DNA of 15,109 nucleotides from the UHGV virus genome UHGV-0224297; one strand, 5' to 3'. The notes beneath the pieces are model-generated. The model ran no database searches, was not told the DNA's origin, and saw nothing but the letters and a program-made list of their open reading frames with translations. This document shows, one piece after another, positions 13 through 9,920 of the stretch. This DNA is from a virus. The position numbers were made by a program, and so were the translations under genes. Within the stretch, counting starts at the first letter, position 1, and each line of letters begins with the position of its first letter.

Positions 13-489
13 TTATAGCCCTAAGTGCGTGAGTGATAAAATAGGCTGTGTTTCACCTTTAATCGTCGCGAAGGAACGATACATTTCTGCGTTACTTGAA
101 AAAACTTCGTTAGCAACGATACATTCACCCGTCTCTAAAGAAAGGAGATAAATGTAGTCGCTCCATACGCTTTGTACCAATACCCACTCGAGCGCGGTGT
201 CATTTTCGCGTGTTGTCCGCAGGTGGTGAAAGTAAGGCCGGATTGCGTCAACCGCCGCATTAAAACGGCGATGATAAATTCGGGTTAAATCAAATGTCCA
301 GATTGTTTCCAGGTCAACTGGATGTAATGTGCGTACAGTGTCGATAATCGTCGACTGATCGTTAAGACGTGAGGCTTCGGCGATACGCAGCAGTTTCCAG
401 GCCACCGTTAAGTTGTGGCGAATTTGTTCAGGTTTAGCCGACAGGTCATGATGAAATTGCGCAGCTTGATAGACGTTAGATAATTGCAT
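13..489 (-). CDS. hypothetical protein (158 aa)
   Basis: Complete ORF with ATG at 487-489 and stop at 13-15. RBS CTAAAGGAG (plus 497-505) lies 7 nt upstream on the minus strand. Sits just downstream of the minus-strand terminator at 520-545. No recognisable motif. Confidence 0.7.
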   Translation of the reverse strand: MQLSNVYQAAQFHHDLSAKPEQIRHNLTVAWKLLRIAEASRLNDQSTIIDTVRTLHPVDLETIWTFDLTRIYHRRFNAAVDAIRPYFHHLRTTRENDTALEWVLVQSVWSDYIYLLSLETGECIVANEVFSSNAEMYRSFATIKGETQPILSLTHLGL

Positions 490-519
490 TTTAATACTCC
501 TTTAGGTAAAACATGTCGT

Positions 520-545
520 AAAAAAGGACCCCGGACATTCCGGGG
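520..545 (-). terminator. intrinsic terminator (minus strand)
   Basis: Hairpin CCCCGGA-CAT-TCCGGGG (529-545), followed on the minus strand by UCCUUUUUU (plus A-run 520-525). Lies 13 nt after the 558..947 stop. Confidence 0.7.
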
Positions 546-557
546 CCAAGACTACAC

Positions 558-947
558 TCAATGATCTAGTTCGATAGCACCAGCCATCTTGCCCCGTTCT
601 TCGATAACGATCAGATAACGGTCGCGAGATTTGCTTTTAGCGAGAGTTAAGACAACAGTAGGGTCGCACGTTTTCGTGGTGATAGGAAGAACCTCTCTTG
701 CAACGGAATCGAGTAGAAAGTAATAACCTGCGGGACACATCGTGCCGCCATCAGCTTTTACCAGAATATAGCGCCCGTCTGCGCCGACTTCTTGGCAGAT
801 TGTTTCACCGACTTCACAAACTTCAAACCCCGGAGGATTGTACTGGTAATCGGTATTGTTGTTTGGGGTTAGCAGTAAATCGTTAACTTGGGTAGATGCT
901 GCTACACCCAGGGAGAAGAAGAATGCTAAAGCGCAGATGAGACGCAT
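558..947 (-). CDS. small predicted secreted protein (129 aa), 4-Cys paralogue A
   Basis: ATG at 945-947 with TAAGGAG RBS 6 nt upstream. N-terminal hydrophobic segment MRLICALAFFFSLGVAAS looks like a Sec signal peptide. Shares a Cys signature with the 958..1368 product. Confidence 0.75.
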   Translation of the reverse strand: MRLICALAFFFSLGVAASTQVNDLLLTPNNNTDYQYNPPGFEVCEVGETICQEVGADGRYILVKADGGTMCPAGYYFLLDSVAREVLPITTKTCDPTVVLTLAKSKSRDRYLIVIEERGKMAGAIELDH

Positions 948-957
948 GAGTTACTCC

Positions 958-1368
958 TTAAATTTTAAGTTTATCCATAGCTACAACGATAGGTTTTTCC
1001 GAAGTGTCTAATATCCCTACCATCGGCACACCATCTACGACTTTGAAGAATGGTTTGTTGTTGCCTGAGCACAAATGTTTGTCGTTGTATTCAAGACGTT
1101 GTGCCTTCCACGTTTCAAGGTTGAGTACAGACATTGGGCTGTCGTAGCACCAGGCACCACCTTGCTCAACGATGAACACGTATCTGCTACCTTTGTATTT
1201 AAACAGGTTCTTCGCCTGGCAGTACAGACCGTCAATTTCCGTACAGTAGAAATCATCGGTGCTATTGACGTACTTAATACCGTCTGGCAACTGTATTGTT
1301 TTTGCTGATACGTTAACAGAGAACAGAATAGCAATTGCAATGAGAAGAGTGTTGATGATAGTTTTCAT
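958..1368 (-). CDS. small predicted secreted protein (136 aa), 4-Cys paralogue B
   Basis: ATG at 1366-1368 with AAGGA-type RBS. Signal-peptide-like N-terminus MKTIINTLLIAIAILFSVNVSA. Its stop overlaps the RBS of the next gene. Shares C-x(6-8)-CQ ... G-x-RY-[IV]-[LF]-[VI]-x-x-GG-x-x-C with the 558..947 product. Confidence 0.75.
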   Translation of the reverse strand: MKTIINTLLIAIAILFSVNVSAKTIQLPDGIKYVNSTDDFYCTEIDGLYCQAKNLFKYKGSRYVFIVEQGGAWCYDSPMSVLNLETWKAQRLEYNDKHLCSGNNKPFFKVVDGVPMVGILDTSEKPIVVAMDKLKI

Positions 1369-1379
1369 GATAAAAGTCC

Positions 1380-1865
1380 TTAGTATTTAGATTGTTCCGC
1401 GTATTTCTTAACCAGGTAAGCGAATTCAGCAACACCGATATCACCGAACCAAATCAGATAACCGGGGTCGATGTTGTAGTAATAACCGACGAGTTTCTTG
1501 GTGTGTGGGTTGTATAGCGTTACGATGTATTCCCAGCCACAAGCATTAGCTTTACAACCACCACTTTCAATCCAGATTTTGTTGTTGATGTTTACCGGAT
1601 ACATGTTACCGCCAGGGCCATCCATGTATCCTTTAGAGCCGAACATACCATCCAGTCCCACCGGGTCTAGTGTTTTATCAACAACGGCTTTAAATGACTT
1701 ATCGGTATCGTACAAGTCGTTGATGTTCGGGCACGCATTTGGCTGACCTTCCCAAGCGTTTCCGTCGCAGGTAAGCAATTCGTCTACGGAGGCCGCATCT
1801 ACAGTTGGTGTGGCACCGATAAACAAGAAAACCAGAAAGAACATCAGTGTATGTAAACGTTTCAT
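1380..1865 (-). CDS. small predicted secreted protein (161 aa)
   Basis: ATG at 1863-1865 with CTAAAGGAG RBS (plus 1874-1882). Signal-peptide-like N-terminus MKRLHTLMFFLVFLFIGATPTVDA. Four Cys in the mature part. Confidence 0.75.
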   Translation of the reverse strand: MKRLHTLMFFLVFLFIGATPTVDAASVDELLTCDGNAWEGQPNACPNINDLYDTDKSFKAVVDKTLDPVGLDGMFGSKGYMDGPGGNMYPVNINNKIWIESGGCKANACGWEYIVTLYNPHTKKLVGYYYNIDPGYLIWFGDIGVAEFAYLVKKYAEQSKY

Positions 1866-1883
1866 TGTAACTACTCCTTTAGA

Positions 1884-2270
1884 TTATTCGGCAGGGCGAT
1901 TTAAAGTAACACGGCCAATTAATTCGGCGTTATGAAAGAAGTCCACAGCGGTATAGTTACCAACTGATAGCGGATGGATACTAACTGACATTACTTTCGG
2001 TTGTTCGCAAGCAATATCGGTTAGACGTTGGTAGACTTGTGCACGGGTGTCAGCAATGAGTAATCCCGTACACGTTTCACCACGCACTAAACGATAAACT
2101 TGCAGTTTACCGAAACTGCGCATTAACGTGGGCGTCTCATCCGGGTTGATAATCGGTGACTCAGGAGCCGGTTCGTAATAGCGGACATCCGAATCACCGA
2201 AAGCATAAGTGCCAGTAATTCCGACCGCACAGAAAATAATGATAGTATAAAGTATAGTTCTGATATTCAT
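1884..2270 (-). CDS. small predicted secreted or membrane-anchored protein (about 128 aa)
   Basis: The ORF track starts at a GTG (2274-2276), but the in-frame ATG at 2268-2270 is the more plausible start. The RBS is weak (GAGTG). N-terminal hydrophobic stretch ILYTIIIFCAVGITGTYA could be a signal peptide or a signal anchor. Start codon choice is uncertain. Confidence 0.65.
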   Translation of the reverse strand: MNIRTILYTIIIFCAVGITGTYAFGDSDVRYYEPAPESPIINPDETPTLMRSFGKLQVYRLVRGETCTGLLIADTRAQVYQRLTDIACEQPKVMSVSIHPLSVGNYTAVDFFHNAELIGRVTLNRPAE

Positions 2271-2298
2271 TTTCACGCACTCTAAAAAAGATTAATAC

Positions 2299-2760
2299 TT
2301 ATTTGTTAGGACGGCTGTGTCCACAGTTCTGGAAAAACGTTTCGTTAAGGCGTTCGCCTTCTACGGTAAACCCTGCTGCCACGTTATCGTTAATAAGTAA
2401 ACTAAAATGTTTTGCCTCACCGACCGCTTTAATGAAATCCGCCCAGGCTTGTTCTGAACGGTCGCTACCGTCGATGGTAGGGATACGGTATTTTTTACCA
2501 TTCACGACAATATCGAGCGCGTTATCCTCAGCGTTTGTTGCCCCTGCAGGTTCTCCGTAATACCAAACATTGTGCCCGTAAAATTTACGATTGGCGGTTT
2601 CTGTACTGCAATTGATAGAGAGGCTGTTGCCTTCAGTGTCTTCGATTTCGTAGATGGCTTGGTCTGGAGACTGGATTTGTTCCCAGCTATTGATTGCTGC
2701 GTGTGCAGTATTGAGGCCCAGCGTTAAGAGGATGGTTAAAAGGGAAGTAAAAAATTTCAT
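2299..2760 (-). CDS. small predicted secreted protein (153 aa)
   Basis: ATG at 2758-2760 with AAAGGAG RBS (plus 2768-2774) 7 nt upstream. Signal-peptide-like N-terminus MKFFTSLLTILLTLGLNTAHA with an AHA-A cleavage-like site. First gene after the terminator and conserved element at 2810-2886. Confidence 0.75.
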   Translation of the reverse strand: MKFFTSLLTILLTLGLNTAHAAINSWEQIQSPDQAIYEIEDTEGNSLSINCSTETANRKFYGHNVWYYGEPAGATNAEDNALDIVVNGKKYRIPTIDGSDRSEQAWADFIKAVGEAKHFSLLINDNVAAGFTVEGERLNETFFQNCGHSRPNK

Positions 2761-2809
2761 TGTTTTGCTCCTTTAAGGCGTTAATGTATAAATGAGTTAA
2801 TCATAACTC

Positions 2810-2836
2810 TCACCTAAGTAATATATATCTGAAATT
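2810..2836. promoter_or_regulatory. conserved element copy 1 (core TAAGTAATATATATCTGAA)
   Basis: The 19-bp core at 2815-2833 is identical to 7179-7197, with similar flanks (TCACY before, WTT after). It lies between the terminator at 2856-2886 and the start of the second minus-strand cassette (2760). Strand of action is unknown. Confidence 0.5.
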
Positions 2837-2855
2837 ATTTTTAATGTTGACGAAC

Positions 2856-2886
2856 AAAAAATAAAAGGTGGGGGTAAACCCCCACC
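2856..2886 (-). terminator. intrinsic terminator (minus strand) ending the upstream cassette
   Basis: Hairpin GGTGGGGG-TAAA-CCCCCACC (2867-2886), followed on the minus strand by UUUUAUUUUUU (plus A-tract 2856-2866). Lies directly after the 2891..3469 stop. No U-tract on the plus-strand side. Confidence 0.8.
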
Positions 2887-2890
2887 GACG

Positions 2891-3469
2891 TTATACATCG
2901 AACCGATACTGCCGGGAGTTAATGAGGAACTCAGTATTCAGCTCAATCCATTCGAGTAATTCCCCCAACGGTAATCGGTTTGGGTTTTCTAACTCGATAG
3001 ATGCAACCGGATAAGAGTTTACTAATTCCGTAATCGCCTCAATCCCCTCTTGCGTTCCATCGTCTTCTAAGGTGATTGTAAACGGCATATCGGTACGTTT
3101 CGCATTAGGATTGTACAAACTGACTTTCGTTGCTTGCACAAACGCAGTCAGGTCGTCTCGCATAATGCGAATATCTGGCGCTAGAACTACCCAGAGATGT
3201 TGCCCTGGCTGGAGTTTACGTTTTGCGTAGTTTACGAAAGGACTTGCCGTCAAGTTCTCTAAACCACAACAGATGTTACGTAAACGAATTCCTCGCGGAT
3301 CTTTGTAATCCACGTCGAAAATCCCCACAGGTTCATTCGCTGCCCGCTTTATCAGAAAGGCTAATACCGTGTCCGCCCTTTCTGGTAAGGAAAGCCCAAC
3401 TCCCTCAAGCTCCCCATCGACGAGATTTTCCAACCAAACGTCTTTTCGCATTTCTATTAATCGGTACAC
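2891..3469 (-). CDS. hypothetical protein (192 aa)
   Basis: ORF with GTG start at 3467-3469 and GAGGTGG RBS 5 nt upstream. The first in-frame ATG, 18 nt downstream, has no RBS. Stop at 2891-2893 is followed by an intrinsic terminator. No recognisable motif. Confidence 0.6.
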   Translation of the reverse strand: MYRLIEMRKDVWLENLVDGELEGVGLSLPERADTVLAFLIKRAANEPVGIFDVDYKDPRGIRLRNICCGLENLTASPFVNYAKRKLQPGQHLWVVLAPDIRIMRDDLTAFVQATKVSLYNPNAKRTDMPFTITLEDDGTQEGIEAITELVNSYPVASIELENPNRLPLGELLEWIELNTEFLINSRQYRFDV

Positions 3470-3481
3470 GGTTCCACCTCA

Positions 3482-4255
3482 CTAATAATTAAGTTTTACA
3501 TCGGCAATAAACAGCAACTGTTTACCGTGTTGCTGCACTTCTTTCCAACCTAGCTTCATAGCAGCGTCAACAACATCTATCATGCTGTAACGAGACATCA
3601 ACGCGGTTGATTTTGTTCCTGACATTAAGTAGAGCGGCTCATTAGGGCAACGGTCGCGAGCATCAGGAAGTTCCCGAGAGACTGCTGATCCTTCGGGTAC
3701 GGTAACAACATGAATCACGGTAAATGGTCTCTTGTGGGTTAAATAGATACGAAACCCAACGTGTTCAGACTCATGAAAGACTTTCTTTACAACCACATCT
3801 TTTAGTGTCGTTTGAACATCAATCCCAGGTAATATCATGGATTCGCGAGAAACGAAACAACGACTATTTTCGACCGTGGAGAAATAATTACGTAACGGTA
3901 AACTGGCGTTATGATCGCGCAGTTTTTTGCTCAGTAGATCGAAGTTCAGTTCTTTAACTTTCTCTAGCCACTCTTTGGCTTGTTGAACGTAATAACTACC
4001 AACGGTGCGATAAGTTAATACCTTACCTGCGCTTACTTTCCAAAGTTTGATGGTTAGTGAGTTTGGCTTATAGCGACGATACTCACCCCGCGTATAGTTG
4101 ATGCGCTCGTAGCGCTCTACATCGTCAATCGGTGCAGATTCGACCGATTGTAACTGCAGCGTACGATCTAATCTATCGGCTAATAGTAGCGATGTTAGCG
4201 GACCTTCGATCATATACGGTTCGGTTTTAAAGATATCGTCTAAATGGACTTTCAT
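3482..4255 (-). CDS. GW-QLLF C-terminal motif family protein (257 aa)
   Basis: ATG at 4253-4255 with AAGGAA RBS. C-terminus LGWKEVQQHGKQLLFIADVKLNY. N-terminus MKVHLDDIF and internal LPGID ... GFRIY are shared with the 6069..6806 product. Confidence 0.75.
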   Translation of the reverse strand: MKVHLDDIFKTEPYMIEGPLTSLLLADRLDRTLQLQSVESAPIDDVERYERINYTRGEYRRYKPNSLTIKLWKVSAGKVLTYRTVGSYYVQQAKEWLEKVKELNFDLLSKKLRDHNASLPLRNYFSTVENSRCFVSRESMILPGIDVQTTLKDVVVKKVFHESEHVGFRIYLTHKRPFTVIHVVTVPEGSAVSRELPDARDRCPNEPLYLMSGTKSTALMSRYSMIDVVDAAMKLGWKEVQQHGKQLLFIADVKLNY

Positions 4256-4322
4256 TTCTATTTCCTTCTTAACAAAAGCCGCGACTAAAGCGCGGCAGTT
4301 AGAGAAAGTATATTTTCACTTA

Positions 4323-5474
4323 TTAAAGGTCAGCAACAAACAGTAGCTGACTGCCATACGGTTCGACAGATTTCCAACCGTAATCTTTACCGATCGTCGT
4401 TAAATGACTGGTAGTTAACTTTTTATCAATCGTCCGCAGATGTATCATTAGCGTATTGGACTCTGCCGCATCAAGTAACATCGCAGGTTCTTTTTCAGTG
4501 CGGTCGTCCGCTTTCGGGAAGAAACTGTAATATTGACTTTTGGGCAGATCGATTGACAACGTATAATTTTTCTTTGTAACGAATAACGCCATCCCTTCGA
4601 AATTGCAATCGAAACGATATTCCCAACCTGCTTCTGCTAAAACGTCTTTTAGCATTTCCATGACTTTAAGCTGATTAACACTAGGCAGTCGGTAAATTGC
4701 AAGACCACTTGGGAAAATGCGTATACCATCGACGACACTATCGGTGGTTTCGTCAATAAGTTCAGGATAACGTTGTGAGAAAATATGATCGCTCTTGCTT
4801 TTCTCTTCAACGTCACGAATGAATTGGGCTAATTCGTCTCTTAAGGCGGACATTTGATTTTCTCCTTTGTCTTCAATAATCAGGTGGGGTTCGCCGCTAA
4901 TTAAAATATGGTAAACGAGGTCGTCGGTAGAACGATAAGTGAGTTTGATAGCTTTATCACTTAACAATTCGTAGCGGAAGAAACTTTCGTACCAACTTAA
5001 GCCGAAATCGTTTTGTGTGAGTTCCTGCTCAACTTTGATGGTTTTTGCTTCAAAGCCGATTAACCCGCTTAATAACGCAAGTTCTGGTTTAGTTAAAATG
5101 GCCATGCCGTGAAAGGGCACTTGTTCAAGCTGAAAACATAAATTACTGACTTTACCACTTGGGAAGACTTTAAACATAATCTTCCGGCTGCTACTCTTTT
5201 CTCTAACAACGAGTTTACGGTAATTTAGTCCACAATTTGAGTAAACCGCGAACTGGTAACCTTCAATTTCTTCATCGTAAGTACAGACATCGACAGGCGC
5301 GATAATCTCATCGTATTCACTAAGTACACAGCAGCCCAAGTTATAACCAAACAACTCGCGTTGTAATGAAGACTCGATGGTTAAGCTTGGCAGAGGCCAA
5401 GTTCGATTATAGCATCTGTCCATCAGTTCTTTTAGGATCTTGGCATGTCCTGGTTTAGAAATAATATTTCGCAT
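4323..5474 (-). CDS. GW-QLLF C-terminal motif family protein (383 aa), with a second degenerate internal copy
   Basis: ATG at 5472-5474 with AAAGGAGAG RBS. C-terminus YGWKSVEPYGSQLLFVADL. A degenerate internal copy reads AEAGWEYRFDCNFEGMALFV. Confidence 0.75.
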   Translation of the reverse strand: MRNIISKPGHAKILKELMDRCYNRTWPLPSLTIESSLQRELFGYNLGCCVLSEYDEIIAPVDVCTYDEEIEGYQFAVYSNCGLNYRKLVVREKSSSRKIMFKVFPSGKVSNLCFQLEQVPFHGMAILTKPELALLSGLIGFEAKTIKVEQELTQNDFGLSWYESFFRYELLSDKAIKLTYRSTDDLVYHILISGEPHLIIEDKGENQMSALRDELAQFIRDVEEKSKSDHIFSQRYPELIDETTDSVVDGIRIFPSGLAIYRLPSVNQLKVMEMLKDVLAEAGWEYRFDCNFEGMALFVTKKNYTLSIDLPKSQYYSFFPKADDRTEKEPAMLLDAAESNTLMIHLRTIDKKLTTSHLTTIGKDYGWKSVEPYGSQLLFVADL

Positions 5475-5503
5475 TTTTACTCTCCTTTAGGGTTTTTCGT
5501 TAC

Positions 5504-6043
5504 TTAAGCAGGGTAAGCTAAGAATAATAACTGCTGGCCGAGTTTACGTACGGTATGCCAGCCGTGCGCTTTTGCTGTTTCTACTAATGTTTCCCAATCG
5601 TCAACGTTGCAACCGTCTTTTTTCAGTTTTGTAAGTAGTGTCTCTGCTTCTTTATCTGTCAGCAATAATCCTGGGTTACTTAACGTACACGTAAGAGGGT
5701 TAGGGAAATACGCGTAGCGTCTTACAAAAGTAAAGTCTACGAGATAGTGTGCTTTCCCCGTGTCTAGAAGCGTAACAACATCCACGCCGCCGTCGTAGGA
5801 CGCGCTCGTCACTTTCCATCCGGTACCGGAAAACAGTTGACTGAATAATTTGGTAAAGATATCCCCGGAACCGCGATAATAAAGCACAGCATCTTCGTTG
5901 ATTTTTTCTATTTCAATACCAGTGATCGTTGTACCCGGTTGGATAACGTTAGACAATATACTGTACGGGCTTTCAAAACGATGTTTACCCACACCCAGGT
6001 TAACAAACTTAATAGCTTGTTGTTTCATTTCGATACTAATCAT
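5504..6043 (-). CDS. GW-QLLF C-terminal motif family protein (179 aa)
   Basis: ATG at 6041-6043 with AAAGGAGAAA RBS. C-terminus AHGWHTVRKLGQQLLFLAYPA. An internal GW is also present (SGTGWKVTSASYDGG). Confidence 0.75.
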   Translation of the reverse strand: MISIEMKQQAIKFVNLGVGKHRFESPYSILSNVIQPGTTITGIEIEKINEDAVLYYRGSGDIFTKLFSQLFSGTGWKVTSASYDGGVDVVTLLDTGKAHYLVDFTFVRRYAYFPNPLTCTLSNPGLLLTDKEAETLLTKLKKDGCNVDDWETLVETAKAHGWHTVRKLGQQLLFLAYPA

Positions 6044-6068
6044 GATATTTTCTCCTTTAGGTTTTTAC

Positions 6069-6806
6069 TTACGCGGTTTTAATTAACAGCAGATAGTCCT
6101 TCGTAAACTCAGCACAACTCCACCCTCTCATCGTGGCGATTTTACGAAGATCAATTTTCTCGTGATATTTCAATAAGGGATCGTCTGAGTTAATCTCAAC
6201 CAGGTGGGTGGCTTTAGAAATCGTTTCCACATCTGGGATCTGTTTTGCTAAGTCGGATGCAATCAGTTCAATAACGCGGTAACCCTTTAACACAGAAACA
6301 TAGATGCGCAAACCATATAGCGTGCCCTCGTCTTCTAATGGACAAAGATCGATGCCGGGTCCAAGCAGTGATAACTCGACGTTATCGGGAAGGTTTTCTG
6401 CATTTCGGAGTAACCCTATCCCATTTCTAAACAGAGGGAAGTAAGAGAATAGTGGTGGTAAAGCCCAACCGTTCCCAATAAGCACATCATCGATACTAGT
6501 AGGCGTGTTCGCAAGAAGACGAATGTGGTCAGCCACAACTTCAAGTTCGGCATCACTGATCAACTTATAGATTAACATGACACTGGTTTCGGTATTAATA
6601 ACGAAGAAGACGCGGTTGGCGTAACTGCCTATCACGTATTCGTCAATCATACAGTCGATAACGTCACTGTCTGGATAATCTTCAGGTTTAATTGTTCCAG
6701 CATCGATTAACTTAGCAGGTTGCGATTGTTTTAATAGTTCGTTAACAACAGTAGAAGAAAGTTCTAAACTGGTGTTAGTAAAGATATCGTCTAATAATTC
6801 TCTCAT
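6069..6806 (-). CDS. GW-QLLF family protein, divergent member (245 aa)
   Basis: ATG at 6804-6806 with a weak RBS; first gene after the divergent control region. C-terminus RGWSCAEFTKDYLLLIKTA is a degenerate form of the motif. N-terminus MRELLDDIF and internal LLGPGID ... GLRIY match the 3482..4255 product. Confidence 0.7.
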   Translation of the reverse strand: MRELLDDIFTNTSLELSSTVVNELLKQSQPAKLIDAGTIKPEDYPDSDVIDCMIDEYVIGSYANRVFFVINTETSVMLIYKLISDAELEVVADHIRLLANTPTSIDDVLIGNGWALPPLFSYFPLFRNGIGLLRNAENLPDNVELSLLGPGIDLCPLEDEGTLYGLRIYVSVLKGYRVIELIASDLAKQIPDVETISKATHLVEINSDDPLLKYHEKIDLRKIATMRGWSCAEFTKDYLLLIKTA

Positions 6807-7173: not shown

Positions 7174-7199
7174 TCACTTAAGTAATATATATCTGAATT
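7174..7199. promoter_or_regulatory. conserved element copy 2 (core TAAGTAATATATATCTGAA)
   Basis: The 19-bp core at 7179-7197 is identical to copy 1. It sits 28 nt upstream of the ATG at 7225, next to the 7144-7172 hairpin, in the divergent control region. Confidence 0.5.
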
Positions 7200-7224: not shown

Positions 7225-8190
7225 ATGGAGAAATCCAGTGTTGATTTTTTCTCAATTGGTATCGTCGCGGAAGACAAACCCCGTGGTACAGATCGGGTAA
7301 AAGTGATACCAATTGAAACCAACTTTGCTAACCCTACCGTGGTGCAATCTGTTTCTTCAGCAACTGAAAAGACGCATGAAACATCTGGTGCAACAGATAA
7401 CCTAACCATTAAGACGGGTAACACGATAACAGCAAAGTGGTGGAAGTTTAACTCCAACCGAATTAATTCCCCTGACGTTAAACGAGAAGATTACGTTATC
7501 TTGTTACGTTTGGGGAAAACCGATATTTATTTTTGGATTGATCTGAACTTCGCTAACGTTAAGCGATTAGAGGATGCGGTTTATGCGTGGTCTGCTGATT
7601 CTGAAAACCAGATGGCGGATGACCTGTCCAATGCGTATGTGTTGAATATCTCGACGATTGACAAACATATCACGCTAAGAACAAGTATGGTGAACGGTGA
7701 GAAAGCGGCGTGGTTGTTTCAGTTTGATAATGCAAACGGTACGTGGCAGTGTGTTGACCATAAAGGAAACAAGTATTACATTAACTCGGTTGAAGATGAT
7801 CTCGGGTTTGAGAATGCGATGCTTTCAAAAGTGAACATCAACAAAGAAGATGCGTTCATTTATTCAAAGCGTTCTATTAACCTGGAAACGAAAACAATTA
7901 ATGAAAAATGCGAAGTTCGCAATACGGAAGCAGCGAAATCCGTTACGTTTAAAACGCAAACCTGGTTAACGGAAGCAGGGAGTTCGACAACATTTAAAAC
8001 GCCGAACTTTAAACAAGAAGGGAATGAAGCGATGTTCACCGGTAATCTGGAAATCGCTAAGAACTTCAAATACGGTGGTACGGGCAAAGGCGTCGGTGTC
8101 TTTACGGTTAAAGATGCCGTTATTTCTGGTATTACCTTTAGCGTTCACATTCACCAAGGTAAACATGGCCCGACATCACCTCCGCAATAA
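7225..8190 (+). CDS. putative baseplate central spike protein (321 aa; function tentative)
   Basis: ATG at 7225-7227 with AAGGA RBS (7212-7216). The N-terminal region (GIVAEDKPRGTDRVKV ... KWWKF ... DYVILLRLG) resembles, from memory, the OB-fold of P2 gpV-type spike proteins. The C-terminus VHIHQGKHGPTSPPQ resembles the His-rich metal-binding tip of such spikes. The coding call is firm; the functional call is not. Confidence 0.65.
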   Translation: MEKSSVDFFSIGIVAEDKPRGTDRVKVIPIETNFANPTVVQSVSSATEKTHETSGATDNLTIKTGNTITAKWWKFNSNRINSPDVKREDYVILLRLGKTDIYFWIDLNFANVKRLEDAVYAWSADSENQMADDLSNAYVLNISTIDKHITLRTSMVNGEKAAWLFQFDNANGTWQCVDHKGNKYYINSVEDDLGFENAMLSKVNINKEDAFIYSKRSINLETKTINEKCEVRNTEAAKSVTFKTQTWLTEAGSSTTFKTPNFKQEGNEAMFTGNLEIAKNFKYGGTGKGVGVFTVKDAVISGITFSVHIHQGKHGPTSPPQ

Positions 8191-8396: not shown

Positions 8397-8606
8397 ATGT
8401 CTATTAAAGAGTTCTCTTCTGCTGAGCATATTCCAGAAGAGTTTAAGAAAATCGGTAACGTCAGCGCTTTCGGCGATACCGTTGATCATGTAACTGGTAA
8501 ACTGGCTGCTGAAGCCGAAAAAATTGGCGGCGACGCATTCAAAGTTATCGGTATTTCCGGCAACAACAAACTGCACGGTAACGCGATTGTCTACAAAAAA
8601 GACTAA
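8397..8606 (+). CDS. DUF1471 (YdgH/BhsA/McbA-like) domain protein without signal peptide (69 aa)
   Basis: ATG at 8397-8399 with GGAGA RBS (8386-8390). The track start at 8379 is a TTG and an in-frame stop lies at 8364-8366, so no N-terminal extension is possible. The C-terminal FKVIGISGNNKLHGNAIVYKKD resembles enterobacterial BhsA-type proteins as I recall them (ending ...TLHGTAVIYK). No hydrophobic N-terminal segment. Confidence 0.65.
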   Translation: MSIKEFSSAEHIPEEFKKIGNVSAFGDTVDHVTGKLAAEAEKIGGDAFKVIGISGNNKLHGNAIVYKKD

Positions 8607-8609
8607 GCG

Positions 8610-8667
8610 AAAAAAAAAACGTGCTACTCCTACCCTCTTAGAGGGTAGGAGGTTACTTTATTTTTTT
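8610..8667. terminator. bidirectional intrinsic terminator between convergent genes
   Basis: Perfect 11-bp stem CTCCTACCCTC-TTA-GAGGGTAGGAG (8627-8651). Flanked by an A10 run (8610-8619) on one side and a T-rich run (8652-8667) on the other. Sits between the DUF1471 stop (8606) and the minus-strand gene stop (8658). Confidence 0.8.
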
Positions 8668-9920
8668 CGTGCTTTAAAGCGATGCATTTCTAAATACACT
8701 TTTTCCCAGGGACCGAATGGACCAACGATTGCTTGAGCATCGTTAATCTTCTTCTGATTATACCACCGGGCTTCACGAAAGACGTAGTTTTGACTGTCGA
8801 ATTCGGTAGTGTTAAATACCCACTCACCTTCCTCCCACGTAGGCCAATAACCTACCGTCTTACCAAATCGATTATTTAAGTACCCTAATGGTTTTTCAGA
8901 ATCAGGATCGTTGGGGTCCTTGAGGTAACAGCGTCCCCAAACGGCGTTATGCGAAACACCCACAACTTCTTCTTCTAAATACGGATTATCTACCGTAAAG
9001 ATAAAAGAGGATTCGTGGAGTAAAAGCGCCTTCAGTGTTTCAGGGTTACGAATACGTTGAACGTTGGTAGGCGATGATAAATCCCCTACACCGATGCTAT
9101 CCCAGTCGTAATAACGGCGGGTTTCCAGAACGGTCCGTGCAAGATCAAAATTCGGTAAAGAAATCATGATCGCACGGTCAGAGAAATAACCGTCCGGGGG
9201 CAACCAACGTAACAATCCGCCTATGACGAAACCCACGGTTTTCCCCGTAATAGACTCAGGCAGCGATATCATTAACGTGGAGTAATAGTCGCGTGTAGTG
9301 TCGAGCTTGTTTAGCGTAAGGTTGGCGATTGGATAGGTTTTAACATTCCCTAGCTGACCAAAAACCATACAGCCAATATCTGGCGTACATGCTCTCCGTA
9401 CGATTTTACCGGCCCCAGGCAATCGAACACCTACGGTATCCGTCTGGTGTGGTACCCATTGACCGTTAATGTTGTACAGCACACTATTACGGTATTTGTC
9501 TTTCCACTTGTCCTCACAAACGACGACAACGTCATCAGCATCGTCTAAGCTGAAATCTTGACTGTGGTGGTACCCTGGTGGACACAGATATGTTTCGACA
9601 GGTACATCGGCATTAATTGATTGGTAGTGTGCCCAACTGAATTCCAGTTTCGGCAATCCAGCCTTTAGAGTGGGAATGACGTTTCCGGCCTTTTCGTTTA
9701 ACCAATCTTGTAAAGTGTCTGTTCGGTTTTGTAGTTCAGCAAGATGGTATTGACTGACTAACGTATAGTCTTTACCAAGTGCACTTAAACCGATCTCAAA
9801 GGTGTGGTAGTCTGAACACAACGTAGTTAAGGGTTGCGTGACATCGATGGCTCCCCAGGTACGGGACTCTCGAGAGAAGCCAAAAGCGCTGTCGGGCCGC
9901 ACTTGATAAGCAGTAGTCAC
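8658..9920 (-). CDS. hypothetical protein (420 aa), Trp/Tyr-rich, possibly structural or enzymatic
   Basis: Long ORF with GTG start at 9918-9920 and a GAGG box about 10 nt upstream; no in-frame ATG near the start. Stop at 8658-8660 lies inside the bidirectional terminator region. Transcribed opposite to both flanking plus-strand genes. Confidence 0.65.
   Translation of the reverse strand: MTTAYQVRPDSAFGFSRESRTWGAIDVTQPLTTLCSDYHTFEIGLSALGKDYTLVSQYHLAELQNRTDTLQDWLNEKAGNVIPTLKAGLPKLEFSWAHYQSINADVPVETYLCPPGYHHSQDFSLDDADDVVVVCEDKWKDKYRNSVLYNINGQWVPHQTDTVGVRLPGAGKIVRRACTPDIGCMVFGQLGNVKTYPIANLTLNKLDTTRDYYSTLMISLPESITGKTVGFVIGGLLRWLPPDGYFSDRAIMISLPNFDLARTVLETRRYYDWDSIGVGDLSSPTNVQRIRNPETLKALLLHESSFIFTVDNPYLEEEVVGVSHNAVWGRCYLKDPNDPDSEKPLGYLNNRFGKTVGYWPTWEEGEWVFNTTEFDSQNYVFREARWYNQKKINDAQAIVGPFGPWEKVYLEMHRFKARKK

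What the first reader, a model, noticed from the sequence alone, without database searches (positions are those of the whole stretch)
558..1368. Two adjacent secreted proteins are paralogues with a conserved 4-Cys signature
The 558..947 and 958..1368 products align over their mature regions. One reads FEVCEVGETICQEVGADGRYILVKADGGTMC and the other FYCTEIDGLYCQAKNLFKYKGSRYVFIVEQGGAWC, giving C-x(6-8)-C-Q ... G-x-R-Y-[IV]-[LF]-[VI]-x-x-G-G-x-x-C. Both also have N-x-TD-x-x-Y near the mature N-terminus. This fits a disulfide-stabilised periplasmic fold that was duplicated and diverged.
Basis: seen in the sequence. Interest (0 to 1): 0.5.

Follow-up and report, generated by a model that had tools for sequence, protein, structure and literature searches.

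The report
Exported paralogue proteins of a jumbo phage
Two neighbouring small genes of a giant Salmonella/E. coli phage are real but very old copies of one exported, cysteine-bridged beta-protein related to the uncharacterised E. coli prophage lipoproteins YfjS/YafY, and they sit in a five-gene, probably early, operon of periplasm-directed proteins whose function is still unknown.

Summary
The core observation holds. On the minus strand, 558..947 (p1, 129 aa) and 958..1368 (p2, 136 aa) both carry signal-peptide-like N-termini and four Cys in the same order.

The pair alone is only marginally similar once the signal peptides are removed (p about 0.03). Profiles of their orthologues from five jumbo-phage genera align at 93% probability (E 2e-7), and the four Cys are 90-100% conserved across 30 sequences. 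The N-x-TD-x-x-Y motif is coincidental.

The duplication is ancient and belongs to a larger family:
- A third 4-Cys paralogue (SPN3US gp181 type) is missing from this window.
- A 2-Cys branch covers p4 (1884..2270), CR5 gp205 and E. coli YfjS/YafY.
- Chromosomal copies lie in the yfjS slot, next to yfjT, in Yersinia and Pantoea islands.

Here p5 (a YfjT homologue), p4, p3 (weakly Ivy-like), p2 and p1 form one unit. It follows a phiKZ-type early-promoter motif and is bracketed by two strong terminators.

An AlphaFold model of p2 (pLDDT 72) is all-beta and has no convincing relative among solved structures. Disulfide geometry could not be measured.

Function is unknown. My best guess is an early periplasmic envelope-protection or superinfection-exclusion role.

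This is modestly interesting: a new variant of a known but uncharacterised family.

The parts
558..947 (-). p1, 129 aa. Predicted signal peptide residues 1-18 (nt 894-947). 4-Cys mature domain with Cys codons at 816-818, 795-797, 735-737 and 666-668. Orthologue of SPN3US gp183.
   Evidence: ORF. phrog_5248 at E 6e-30. Orthologues in 64 phage records. Family alignment.
958..1368 (-). p2, 136 aa. Predicted signal peptide residues 1-22 (nt 1303-1368). 4-Cys mature domain with Cys codons at 1243-1245, 1219-1221, 1147-1149 and 1069-1071. Orthologue of SPN3US gp182.
   Evidence: ORF. phrog_8968 at E 7e-32. tblastn finds orthologues. AlphaFold model with pLDDT 72, all-beta.
1380..1865 (-). p3, 161 aa. 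Exported protein that occupies the slot where related phages carry the third 4-Cys paralogue. Weakly Ivy-like, with a CKANAC loop aligned to Ivy's CKPHDC loop.
   Evidence: NCBIfam Ivy model at E 0.0013. BLASTP against E. coli Ivy at E 2e-5. hhalign P 0.0013, above all 150 shuffles. Weak hit to the Ivy PHROG 13619. No tblastn hit in the phage collection.
1884..2270 (-). p4, 128 aa if it starts at the ATG at 2270 (the listed ORF starts at GTG 2276). Exported 2-Cys protein, orthologue of SPN3US gp180. Probable distant member of the same superfamily, keeping C3 and C4 only.
   Evidence: phrog_9424 at E 3e-40 plus phrog_5248 at E 0.0024. hhalign against the p1 family: P 9e-4 over 75 columns, above all 150 shuffles. 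The orthologue in L048 was called at 128 aa.
2299..2760 (-). p5, 153 aa. Exported homologue of E. coli YfjT and first gene of the unit.
   Evidence: BLASTP against YfjT at E 1e-13. The orthologue in L048 carries PF27224:YfjT. Both p5 and YfjT hit phrog_3429.
2810..2833 (-). Promoter-like motif TTCAGATATATATTACTTAGGTGA, 57 nt upstream of the p5 ATG. It matches the published early (virion RNA polymerase) promoter consensus predicted for phiKZ-like jumbo phages.
   Evidence: The 16-mer occurs twice in the window against 0.03 expected. Both copies are intergenic and on the minus strand. Consensus taken from PMC7058600 Table 2. The same motif lies upstream of the cassette in SPN3US, L048, phiEaH2, Asesino, SPAsTU and SNUABM_29.
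2867..2886 (-). Intrinsic terminator (8-bp stem, 7 GC pairs, T-run) that ends the upstream gene and insulates the cassette.
   Evidence: sequence
527..547 (-). Intrinsic terminator (9-bp stem, 7 GC pairs, T-run) 11 nt after the p1 stop codon. It marks the end of the p5-p1 unit.
   Evidence: sequence

Best explanation
What it is. p1 and p2 are ancient, strongly diverged tandem paralogues of one small all-beta domain. The domain is exported by a cleavable signal peptide and is most likely held by two disulfides, C1-C2 and C3-C4.

Wider family. The domain belongs to a superfamily restricted to Enterobacterales. Its members are:
- the 4-Cys families of SPN3US-like jumbo phages (gp181, gp182 and gp183 types);
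- a 2-Cys branch (the gp180 type, which is p4 here, and CR5 gp205);
- the inner-membrane lipoproteins YfjS/YafY of CP4-57- and CP4-6-type islands.

Context in this phage. The genes form a five-gene unit, p5 (YfjT-like), p4, p3 (Ivy-like), p2 and p1. The unit begins after a phiKZ-type early-promoter motif and is bracketed by two strong terminators.

Most likely mechanism (inferred, not shown). Early in infection the proteins are secreted into the periplasm and oxidised by the host Dsb system. There they bind envelope or periplasmic targets so as to protect or re-programme the infected cell's envelope. The likeliest purpose is exclusion of superinfecting phage, or protection against murein hydrolases carried by incoming virions. 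The paralogues would have diverged to bind different targets.

What is shown: homology, conservation, synteny, purifying selection, and the promoter and terminator motifs.
What is inferred: export, disulfides, early timing and function.
For: Homology.
- Trimmed profiles of the p1 and p2 families: hhalign 93%, E 2.4e-7.
- p1 family against the gp181-type family: 95.5%. p2 family against the gp181-type family: 98.3%.
- None of 150 shuffles reached the observed scores.
- PHROG cross-hits agree.

Cys pattern. C3 and C4 are invariant and C1 and C2 at least 90% conserved in 30 sequences. The Cys are lost in pairs in the 2-Cys members.

Link to YfjS.
- p1-family profile against YfjS: 74%, E 2.8e-5 over 97 columns, score 33 against shuffles of 11 +/- 2.
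- YfjS hits phrog_5248 over its full length at E 4e-5.
- The CR5 2-Cys protein is a member of phrog_5248.
- gp181-type homologues occupy the yfjS position (GTPase, WYL regulator, this gene, YfjT, RadC, CbeA, CbtA) in Yersinia rohdei and in two Pantoea-type islands. Compare E. coli CP4-57.

Export signals are present on all five cassette proteins and absent from the flanking genes.

Operon and timing. The genes are 10-22 nt apart. Terminators lie at 2886-2867 and 547-527. An early-type promoter motif is conserved upstream in seven related phages.

Real, selected, fast-evolving accessory genes.
- dN/dS is 0.02-0.18 (the p1 value rests on a saturated dS).
- Protein identity to a sister phage is 64-83% for p1, p2, p3 and p5, against 91-96% for the neighbouring structural genes.

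No virion role is reported. The main text of the SPN3US virion and essential-gene study does not mention gp180-gp184.

Periplasmic theme. p3 gives weak but concordant Ivy hits.
Against: - No experiment or transcript data bear on function or timing. The promoter assignment rests on similarity to a consensus that was itself predicted.
- Disulfide geometry was not measured.
- The p1 model is unusable (pLDDT 46) and the p2 model is only moderate (pLDDT 72).
- The Pfam YfjS_YafY model does not hit any phage member, even at E up to 10. The superfamily link is therefore remote, and YfjS itself has no known function.
- PADLOC finds nothing.
- An exhaustive HMMER search with the p2 + gp181-type profile did not retrieve the p1 family at database-wide significance.
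- The C-terminal thirds of p1 and p2 align only weakly (P 0.017).
Confidence: 0.5

Rival explanations
1. The resemblance is chance or convergence. Two unrelated small secreted proteins happen to share signal peptides and a similar spacing of four Cys.
For: Similarity of the mature regions alone is marginal (z 2.5, p about 0.03). The BLASTP alignment includes the signal peptides. The N-x-TD-x-x-Y motif is indeed coincidental.
Against: Signal-peptide-free profile comparison gives E 2.4e-7, with no shuffle reaching the score. Both families also link to a third family at 95-98%. Bridging sequences exist, such as P0110, which combines an FWC...C N-terminus with the ETCPNGFY and CQPD motifs. The genes are adjacent in every related genome examined.
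Confidence: 0.03
2. The proteins modulate envelope stress signalling rather than exclude phage. Like over-produced YafY, they would trigger or tune the Cpx response, or another periplasmic signalling or quality-control pathway, to condition the host envelope for phage development.
For: YafY, an inner-membrane lipoprotein of unknown function, was one of only two of 90 E. coli lipoproteins whose over-production activated Cpx (PMC6538781). The p1 family is remotely related to YfjS/YafY. The unit appears to be early.
Against: p1 and p2 lack the lipobox and membrane anchor of YafY (read). Cpx activation by over-production may be non-specific, and deleting yafY had no phenotype in that study. Multiple fast-diverging paralogues fit target-binding arms races better than a single signalling input.
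Confidence: 0.15
3. The proteins regulate lysis or murein turnover. As periplasmic antiholin-, spanin- or inhibitor-like factors they would control the timing of lysis or restrain the phage's own murein hydrolases.
For: They share an operon with a weakly Ivy-like protein. In the sister phage an SLT-domain protein lies about 6 kb downstream and is preceded by the same promoter motif.
Against: No similarity to holins, antiholins or spanins appeared in Pfam, PHROGs or NCBIfam. There are no membrane-spanning segments beyond the signal peptide. Chromosomal homologues sit in non-lytic islands. An early-type promoter is unexpected for lysis functions.
Confidence: 0.12
4. They are virion or tail-assembly components, given that they lie next to baseplate and tail-fibre genes.
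For: The baseplate gene (7225..8190), the gp171-like tail gene (8658..9920) and a 1440-aa fibre gene lie within 9 kb.
Against: Cleavable signal peptides would remove the proteins from the cytoplasm, where virions assemble. They lie on the opposite strand, in a separate terminator-bounded unit with an early-type promoter. gp180-183 are not mentioned among SPN3US virion or tail proteins. Homologues occur in islands without tail genes next to them.
Confidence: 0.03

Closest known systems
E. coli K-12 YfjS / YafY (Pfam PF20494, 'Lipoprotein YfjS/YafY domain'; cryptic prophages CP4-57 and CP4-6)
   Same: About 110-residue exported domain. The two core Cys (C3, C4) and the surrounding strands align, with motifs such as GC.GG.YY.LVD ... 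C. hhalign gives 74%, E 2.8e-5. YfjS hits the p1 PHROG at E 4e-5. It is partnered with a YfjT gene, as here. Function is unknown in both.
   Different: YfjS/YafY are lipoproteins (LSAC lipobox) with only two Cys. p1 and p2 have SPase-I-type signal peptides and an extra N-terminal C1-C2 hairpin. The Pfam model does not detect the phage proteins. The phage genes occur as 3-5 tandem paralogues.
PHROG families 5248, 8968, 17072 and 9424 (SPN3US gp183, gp182, gp181, gp180 and orthologues in Seoulvirus, Erskinevirus, Machinavirus, Wellingtonvirus and Derbicusvirus)
   Same: p1, p2 and p4 are ordinary members of 5248, 8968 and 9424 (E 1e-30 to 1e-40). Gene order is the same.
   Different: PHROGs keeps these as four separate families of unknown function. 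Here they are shown to be one superfamily. This phage lacks the 17072 (gp181-type) member and instead carries the unrelated p3, plus a YfjT homologue that no phage in the reference collection has.
T4 Spackle (gp61.3) and Imm, and T5 Llp: periplasmic or envelope superinfection-exclusion proteins (from my own knowledge, not tested here)
   Same: Small, signal-peptide-bearing or envelope-targeted accessory proteins of virulent phages, made early. This is the functional model I favour.
   Different: No sequence relationship was found. The p2 model is all-beta, whereas Spackle is helical as far as I recall. No exclusion phenotype has been tested.
Ivy, periplasmic inhibitor of C-type lysozyme (relevant to the neighbour p3 only)
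   Same: p3 aligns to the strand, C-x4-C loop, strand core of Ivy. Evidence: NCBIfam E 0.0013, BLASTP E 2e-5, and a weak hit to the PHROG that contains Ivy.
   Different: The loop is CKANAC (CKSNAC in the sister phage), not CKPHDC. The inhibitory His is therefore absent. Scores are far below the family cut-off (18.6 against 180 bits). The p1 and p2 families show no similarity to Ivy (P at least 0.5).
Beta-propeller blades, including the disulfide-bridged blades of PfCyRPA (structural resemblance only)
   Different: The scores are low and generic, identity is 3-17%, and Foldseek finds nothing significant. No internal repeat is detectable in p1 or p2.

Membership tests
YfjS/YafY lipoprotein family (PF20494) | Match to the Pfam model at or above its gathering score (27 bits) | tested here: not met
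   YfjS itself scores 228 bits. None of 30 phage members, including p1 and p2, shows any PF20494 hit at E up to 10. CR5 gp205 has none at E up to 1.
YfjS/YafY lipoprotein family (PF20494) | Lipoprotein signal peptide with a lipobox Cys (L-S-A-C in YfjS) | tested here: not met
   The p1 signal peptide ends ...GVAAS/TQ and that of p2 ends ...NVSA/KT. Neither has a Cys at +1 (sequences). YfjS has LSAC.
YfjS/YafY-like superfamily (remote homology) | Profile-level alignment of the mature domain, including both core Cys | tested here: met
   hhalign of the p1 family against mature YfjS: 74%, E 2.8e-5, 97 columns, score 33.3 against shuffles of 11.3 +/- 2.2. YfjS hits phrog_5248 at E 4.2e-5 over residues 3-137.
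YfjS/YafY-like superfamily (remote homology) | Genomic partnership with a YfjT-family gene | tested here: met
   p5 (2299..2760) is homologous to YfjT at E 1e-13. Its L048 orthologue carries PF27224. gp181-type homologues lie immediately upstream of yfjT in three chromosomal islands.
PHROG 5248 (p1) and PHROG 8968 (p2) | Full-length significant match to the family profile | tested here: met
   p1: E 5.7e-30 over residues 3-128. p2: E 6.9e-32 over residues 1-130.
   Basic N-terminus, 12-residue hydrophobic core (Kyte-Doolittle 2.5-2.8) and a small-x-small cleavage motif. No dedicated predictor or experiment was available.
   Model coordinates are not returned. Only indirect support exists: the Cys are invariant and are lost in pairs, C1+C2 together while C3+C4 are kept.
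Ivy lysozyme-inhibitor family (for neighbour p3 only) | Family model above cut-off and a CKPHDC inhibitory loop | tested here: not met
   18.6 bits against a cut-off of 180. The loop is CKANAC, with both Cys present but no His. Resemblance only.
Known anti-phage defence or superinfection-exclusion proteins | Match to a PADLOC model | tested here: not met
   No hit for p1-p5, the gp181-type protein P0034 or YfjT. YfjS gave only a sub-threshold WYL hit (E 0.029).

The most novel reading that the evidence does not exclude
The p5-p1 unit is a previously unrecognised early 'periplasmic immunity cassette'. It would be shared between SPN3US-like jumbo phages and CP4-57-type integrative islands. Its diversified YfjS-like beta-domains (p1, p2, p4), a YfjT-like partner and an Ivy-like inhibitor would bind envelope components and virion-borne murein hydrolases, blocking entry of competing phages. 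If true, this would give the first function to the E. coli y-ome genes yfjS, yafY and yfjT.
Probability: 0.2. Interest if true: 0.65.

Novelty: new variant of a known kind. Interest (0 to 1): 0.35.

Why it matters
Jumbo phages carry hundreds of genes of unknown function. Very little is known about what they send into the periplasm.

This work merges four 'unknown' phage protein families and the E. coli y-ome proteins YfjS/YafY into one exported, Cys-bridged superfamily. It pairs that superfamily with YfjT. It also places the phage copies in a compact unit that is probably expressed early and can be cloned and tested as a block.

If the cassette proves to mediate superinfection exclusion or envelope protection, it would explain a conserved module of both jumbo phages and widespread enterobacterial islands. 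If it does not, the result is still a clean annotation improvement for about 60 phage genomes.

Tried and rejected
- Pairwise statistics alone were too weak, so I moved to profiles.
- Pfam, NCBIfam and PADLOC found no family for p1 or p2.
- A PDB sequence search with the superfamily profile gave only a spurious repeat match to the designed protein ThreeFoil.
- The AlphaFold model of p1 had pLDDT 46 and was not used for fold search.
- The afdb50 fold library was unavailable.
- I tested for an internal duplication, prompted by RYILVKADGG against RYLIVIEERG. None was found (P above 0.1).
- I tested whether the p1 and p2 families are Ivy-like, as p3 may be. They are not (P at least 0.5).
- I tried to deepen the YfjS profile with a scan of genome contigs. 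Only relatives at 87% identity or more came back. tblastn of YfjS against phages was not significant database-wide.
- The literature on SPN3US gp180-183 says nothing.
- The N-x-TD-x-x-Y motif was rejected as coincidence.
- Sigma-70 promoter scans gave no more sites than expected.
Full report
SOURCE AND GENE CONTENT
The window comes from a jumbo phage related to Salmonella phage SPN3US and Erwinia phage phiEaH2. It is about 72-75% identical to them in nucleotide sequence over the baseplate and tail region. Proteins identical to those of the window occur on contigs of about 225 kb in many Salmonella, Shigella and E. coli assemblies. All genes from 13 to 6806 lie on the minus strand. The finding concerns p1 (558..947, 129 aa) and p2 (958..1368, 136 aa). 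These are the orthologues of SPN3US gp183 and gp182.

CHECK OF THE OBSERVATION
The quoted strings and the four mature Cys are present. The pair alone is weak evidence. BLASTP gives E 5e-5, but the alignment includes the signal peptides. Mature regions alone give z = 2.5, and 60 of 2000 shuffles scored as high.

I therefore collected orthologues from 12 phage loci in five genera and from metagenomes. I built family alignments, removed the signal peptides and compared profiles. The results were:
- p1 family against p2 family: 93.4%, E 2.4e-7, 79 columns.
- Both against a third 4-Cys family (SPN3US gp181 type, 'F3'): 95.5% and 98.3%.
- Against the unrelated neighbouring family, used as a control: at most 2%.
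- Column-shuffled controls never approached the observed scores: 43.9 against 11.6 +/- 2.3.

Curated PHROG profiles agree independently. p1 hits p2's PHROG at E 0.007 within the mature region. F3 hits p2's PHROG at E 1e-9. In a joint alignment of 30 sequences, C3 and C4 are invariant and C1 and C2 are at least 90% conserved, at 13-22% identity between subfamilies.

The N-x-TD-x-x-Y motif is absent from all orthologues and is out of register with C1. It is coincidental. The similarity is concentrated in the segment C2, strand, strand, GG-x-x-C3, strand (P 6e-7). The C-terminal third aligns only weakly (P 0.017). No internal repeat is detectable.

THE FAMILY IS LARGER THAN THE PAIR
- p4 (1884..2270, SPN3US gp180 type) has two Cys, and these align with C3 and C4. 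It hits the p1 PHROG at E 0.0024. It aligns to the p1 profile over 75 columns at P 9e-4, above all 150 shuffles.
- The CR5 and Derbicus proteins are bona fide members of the p1 PHROG and also keep only C3 and C4.
- Because C1 and C2 are always lost together while C3 and C4 are retained, the likely connectivity is C1-C2 and C3-C4.
- E. coli YfjS (CP4-57; Pfam PF20494 YfjS_YafY) belongs to the same 2-Cys branch at the level of remote homology. hhalign gives 74%, E 2.8e-5 over 97 columns, score 33 against 11 +/- 2 for shuffles. YfjS also gives a full-length hit to phrog_5248 at E 4e-5. The Pfam model itself does not detect the phage proteins.

Genomic context supports the link.
- F3 homologues lie on Yersinia rohdei and Pantoea chromosomes. 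The Yersinia protein is 73% identical to that of phiEaH2.
- These homologues sit between a YfjR-like WYL regulator and yfjT, followed by RadC, CbeA and CbtA.
- That is the slot yfjS occupies in CP4-57.

An exhaustive HMMER search of 1.84 billion representatives with a p2+F3 profile found only 24 clusters. The family is therefore narrow, confined to Enterobacterales phages and islands.

THE SURROUNDINGS
Five consecutive genes (p5, p4, p3, p2, p1) have a basic N-terminus and a hydrophobic core typical of signal peptides. The flanking genes do not. The five genes are 10-22 nt apart, each with a Shine-Dalgarno sequence.

- p5 is a YfjT homologue: BLASTP E 1e-13, and the sister-phage orthologue carries PF27224.
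- p3 replaces the F3 paralogue found at this position in other phages.
- Neither p3 nor p5 has any tblastn match in the phage collection.
- p3 gives weak but concordant matches to Ivy across the C-x4-C loop, CKANAC against CKPHDC.

Strong intrinsic terminators lie just upstream of the unit (2886-2867) and 11 nt after the p1 stop codon (547-527).

Fifty-seven nt before the p5 ATG lies TTCAGATATATATTACTTAGGTGA.
- It recurs almost identically upstream of the neighbouring minus-strand cluster, at 7174-7197.
- The 16-mer is expected 0.03 times in the window.
- It matches the early-promoter consensus predicted for phiKZ-like jumbo phages: phiKZ TATATTAC; N1M2 ...TTTCARRYAKATATTATYWAAGTGWA (PMC7058600 Table 2).
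- The same motif precedes the cassette in SPN3US, the sister phage L048, phiEaH2, Asesino, SPAsTU and SNUABM_29.

The unit is therefore probably an early transcript made by the virion RNA polymerase. This rests on motif similarity only.

SELECTION
Compared with the sister phage L048, the neighbouring structural proteins are 91-96% identical. p1 is 83%, p2 77%, p5 75% and p3 65% identical. dN/dS is below 0.2 throughout. It is 0.17-0.18 for p2, p3 and p5, against 0.02-0.04 for the baseplate and tail genes. dS is saturated for some genes, including p1. These are real, constrained genes that evolve fast, as accessory genes do.

STRUCTURE
The p1 model was poor (pLDDT 46). The p2 model reached pLDDT 72 and pTM 0.68. 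It is all-beta with seven strands, and C3 and C4 lie in loops after strand 2 and before strand 5.
- Foldseek against PDB finds nothing.
- In BFVD the only confident match is the Wellington orthologue.

No informative fold relative is known.

INTERPRETATION
Three amendments apply.
1. The duplication is ancient and multiple.
2. The family reaches YfjS/YafY.
3. The genes belong to a terminator-bounded, probably early operon of periplasm-directed proteins.

Function is unknown for every member. YafY is an inner-membrane lipoprotein of unknown function whose over-production activates Cpx (PMC6538781). yfjS and yfjT are listed in the E. coli y-ome (PMC11551758). The main text of the SPN3US essential-gene and virion study does not mention gp180-184.

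I commit to an early periplasmic envelope-protection or superinfection-exclusion role as the most likely mechanism, at about 30-35%. Envelope-stress modulation (about 15%) and control of lysis or murein hydrolases (about 12%) are the alternatives. A virion role and chance resemblance are each unlikely (about 3%).

VERDICT
This is a genuine but modest finding. It unifies several families of unknown function and yields a compact, testable cassette. It does not reveal a new kind of system.

Noticed in passing
window 1380..1865 (-): p3 is an exported 161-aa protein with a conserved C-K-[AS]-N-A-C loop. It aligns weakly but consistently with the inhibitory CKPHDC loop region of the lysozyme inhibitor Ivy (NCBIfam E 0.0013, BLASTP E 2e-5, Ivy PHROG E 0.076). 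It has no homologue in the 50,697-record phage collection, and it replaces the third 4-Cys paralogue found at this position in related phages.
   Followed up: partly
window 2299..2760 (-): p5 is a homologue of the uncharacterised E. coli CP4-57 protein YfjT (E 1e-13; PF27224 on the sister-phage orthologue). No other phage in the reference collection has one.
   Followed up: yes
window 2810..2833 (-) and 7174..7197 (-): Two near-identical copies of TTCAGATATATATTACTTA[GA]GTGA lie in the only two minus-strand promoter positions of the window. They match the predicted early-promoter consensus of phiKZ-like jumbo phages. In the sister phage, the degenerate form of the motif also precedes an SLT-domain gene (L048 16378).
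   Followed up: partly
window 3482..6806 (-): Four consecutive genes (257, 383, 179 and 245 aa) form a second paralogue family. Pairwise BLASTP gives E 1e-10 to 3e-4. Three of the four share the C-terminal motif GW..V...G.QLLF.A (weaker in the 245-aa protein). They lie downstream of the second promoter motif.
   Followed up: partly
window 8397..8606 (+): A 69-aa YdgH/BhsA-like (DUF1471, PF07338) protein without a signal peptide is encoded between the baseplate gene and the gp171-like tail gene. It is conserved in SPN3US (gp172).
   Followed up: no
whole window (protein clusters of p1, p2, p3, p5): Identical proteins occur on contigs of about 221-228 kb in dozens of NCBI isolate assemblies labelled Salmonella enterica, Shigella flexneri, Shigella sonnei and E. 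coli. This suggests that the jumbo phage is frequently co-sequenced with clinical isolates, either as a carrier state or pseudolysogeny, or as contamination.
   Followed up: no
L013 8001..8501 (Yersinia rohdei chromosome); L050 and L052 (Pantoea-type islands): The gp181-type 4-Cys protein is 73% identical between Erwinia phages (phiEaH2, Asesino) and a Yersinia chromosomal island. It always lies between a WYL regulator and yfjT. This implies recent gene exchange between jumbo phages and CP4-57-like islands.
   Followed up: partly
protein P0112 (411 aa): A metagenomic protein carries six tandem repeats of about 35 residues (FYCNSEDLYQGRTYITDMGNNSRCEKAARSENNGR) that match the C1-C2 hairpin segment of the profile. 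This may be an independent use of that mini-motif, or a chance match.
   Followed up: no
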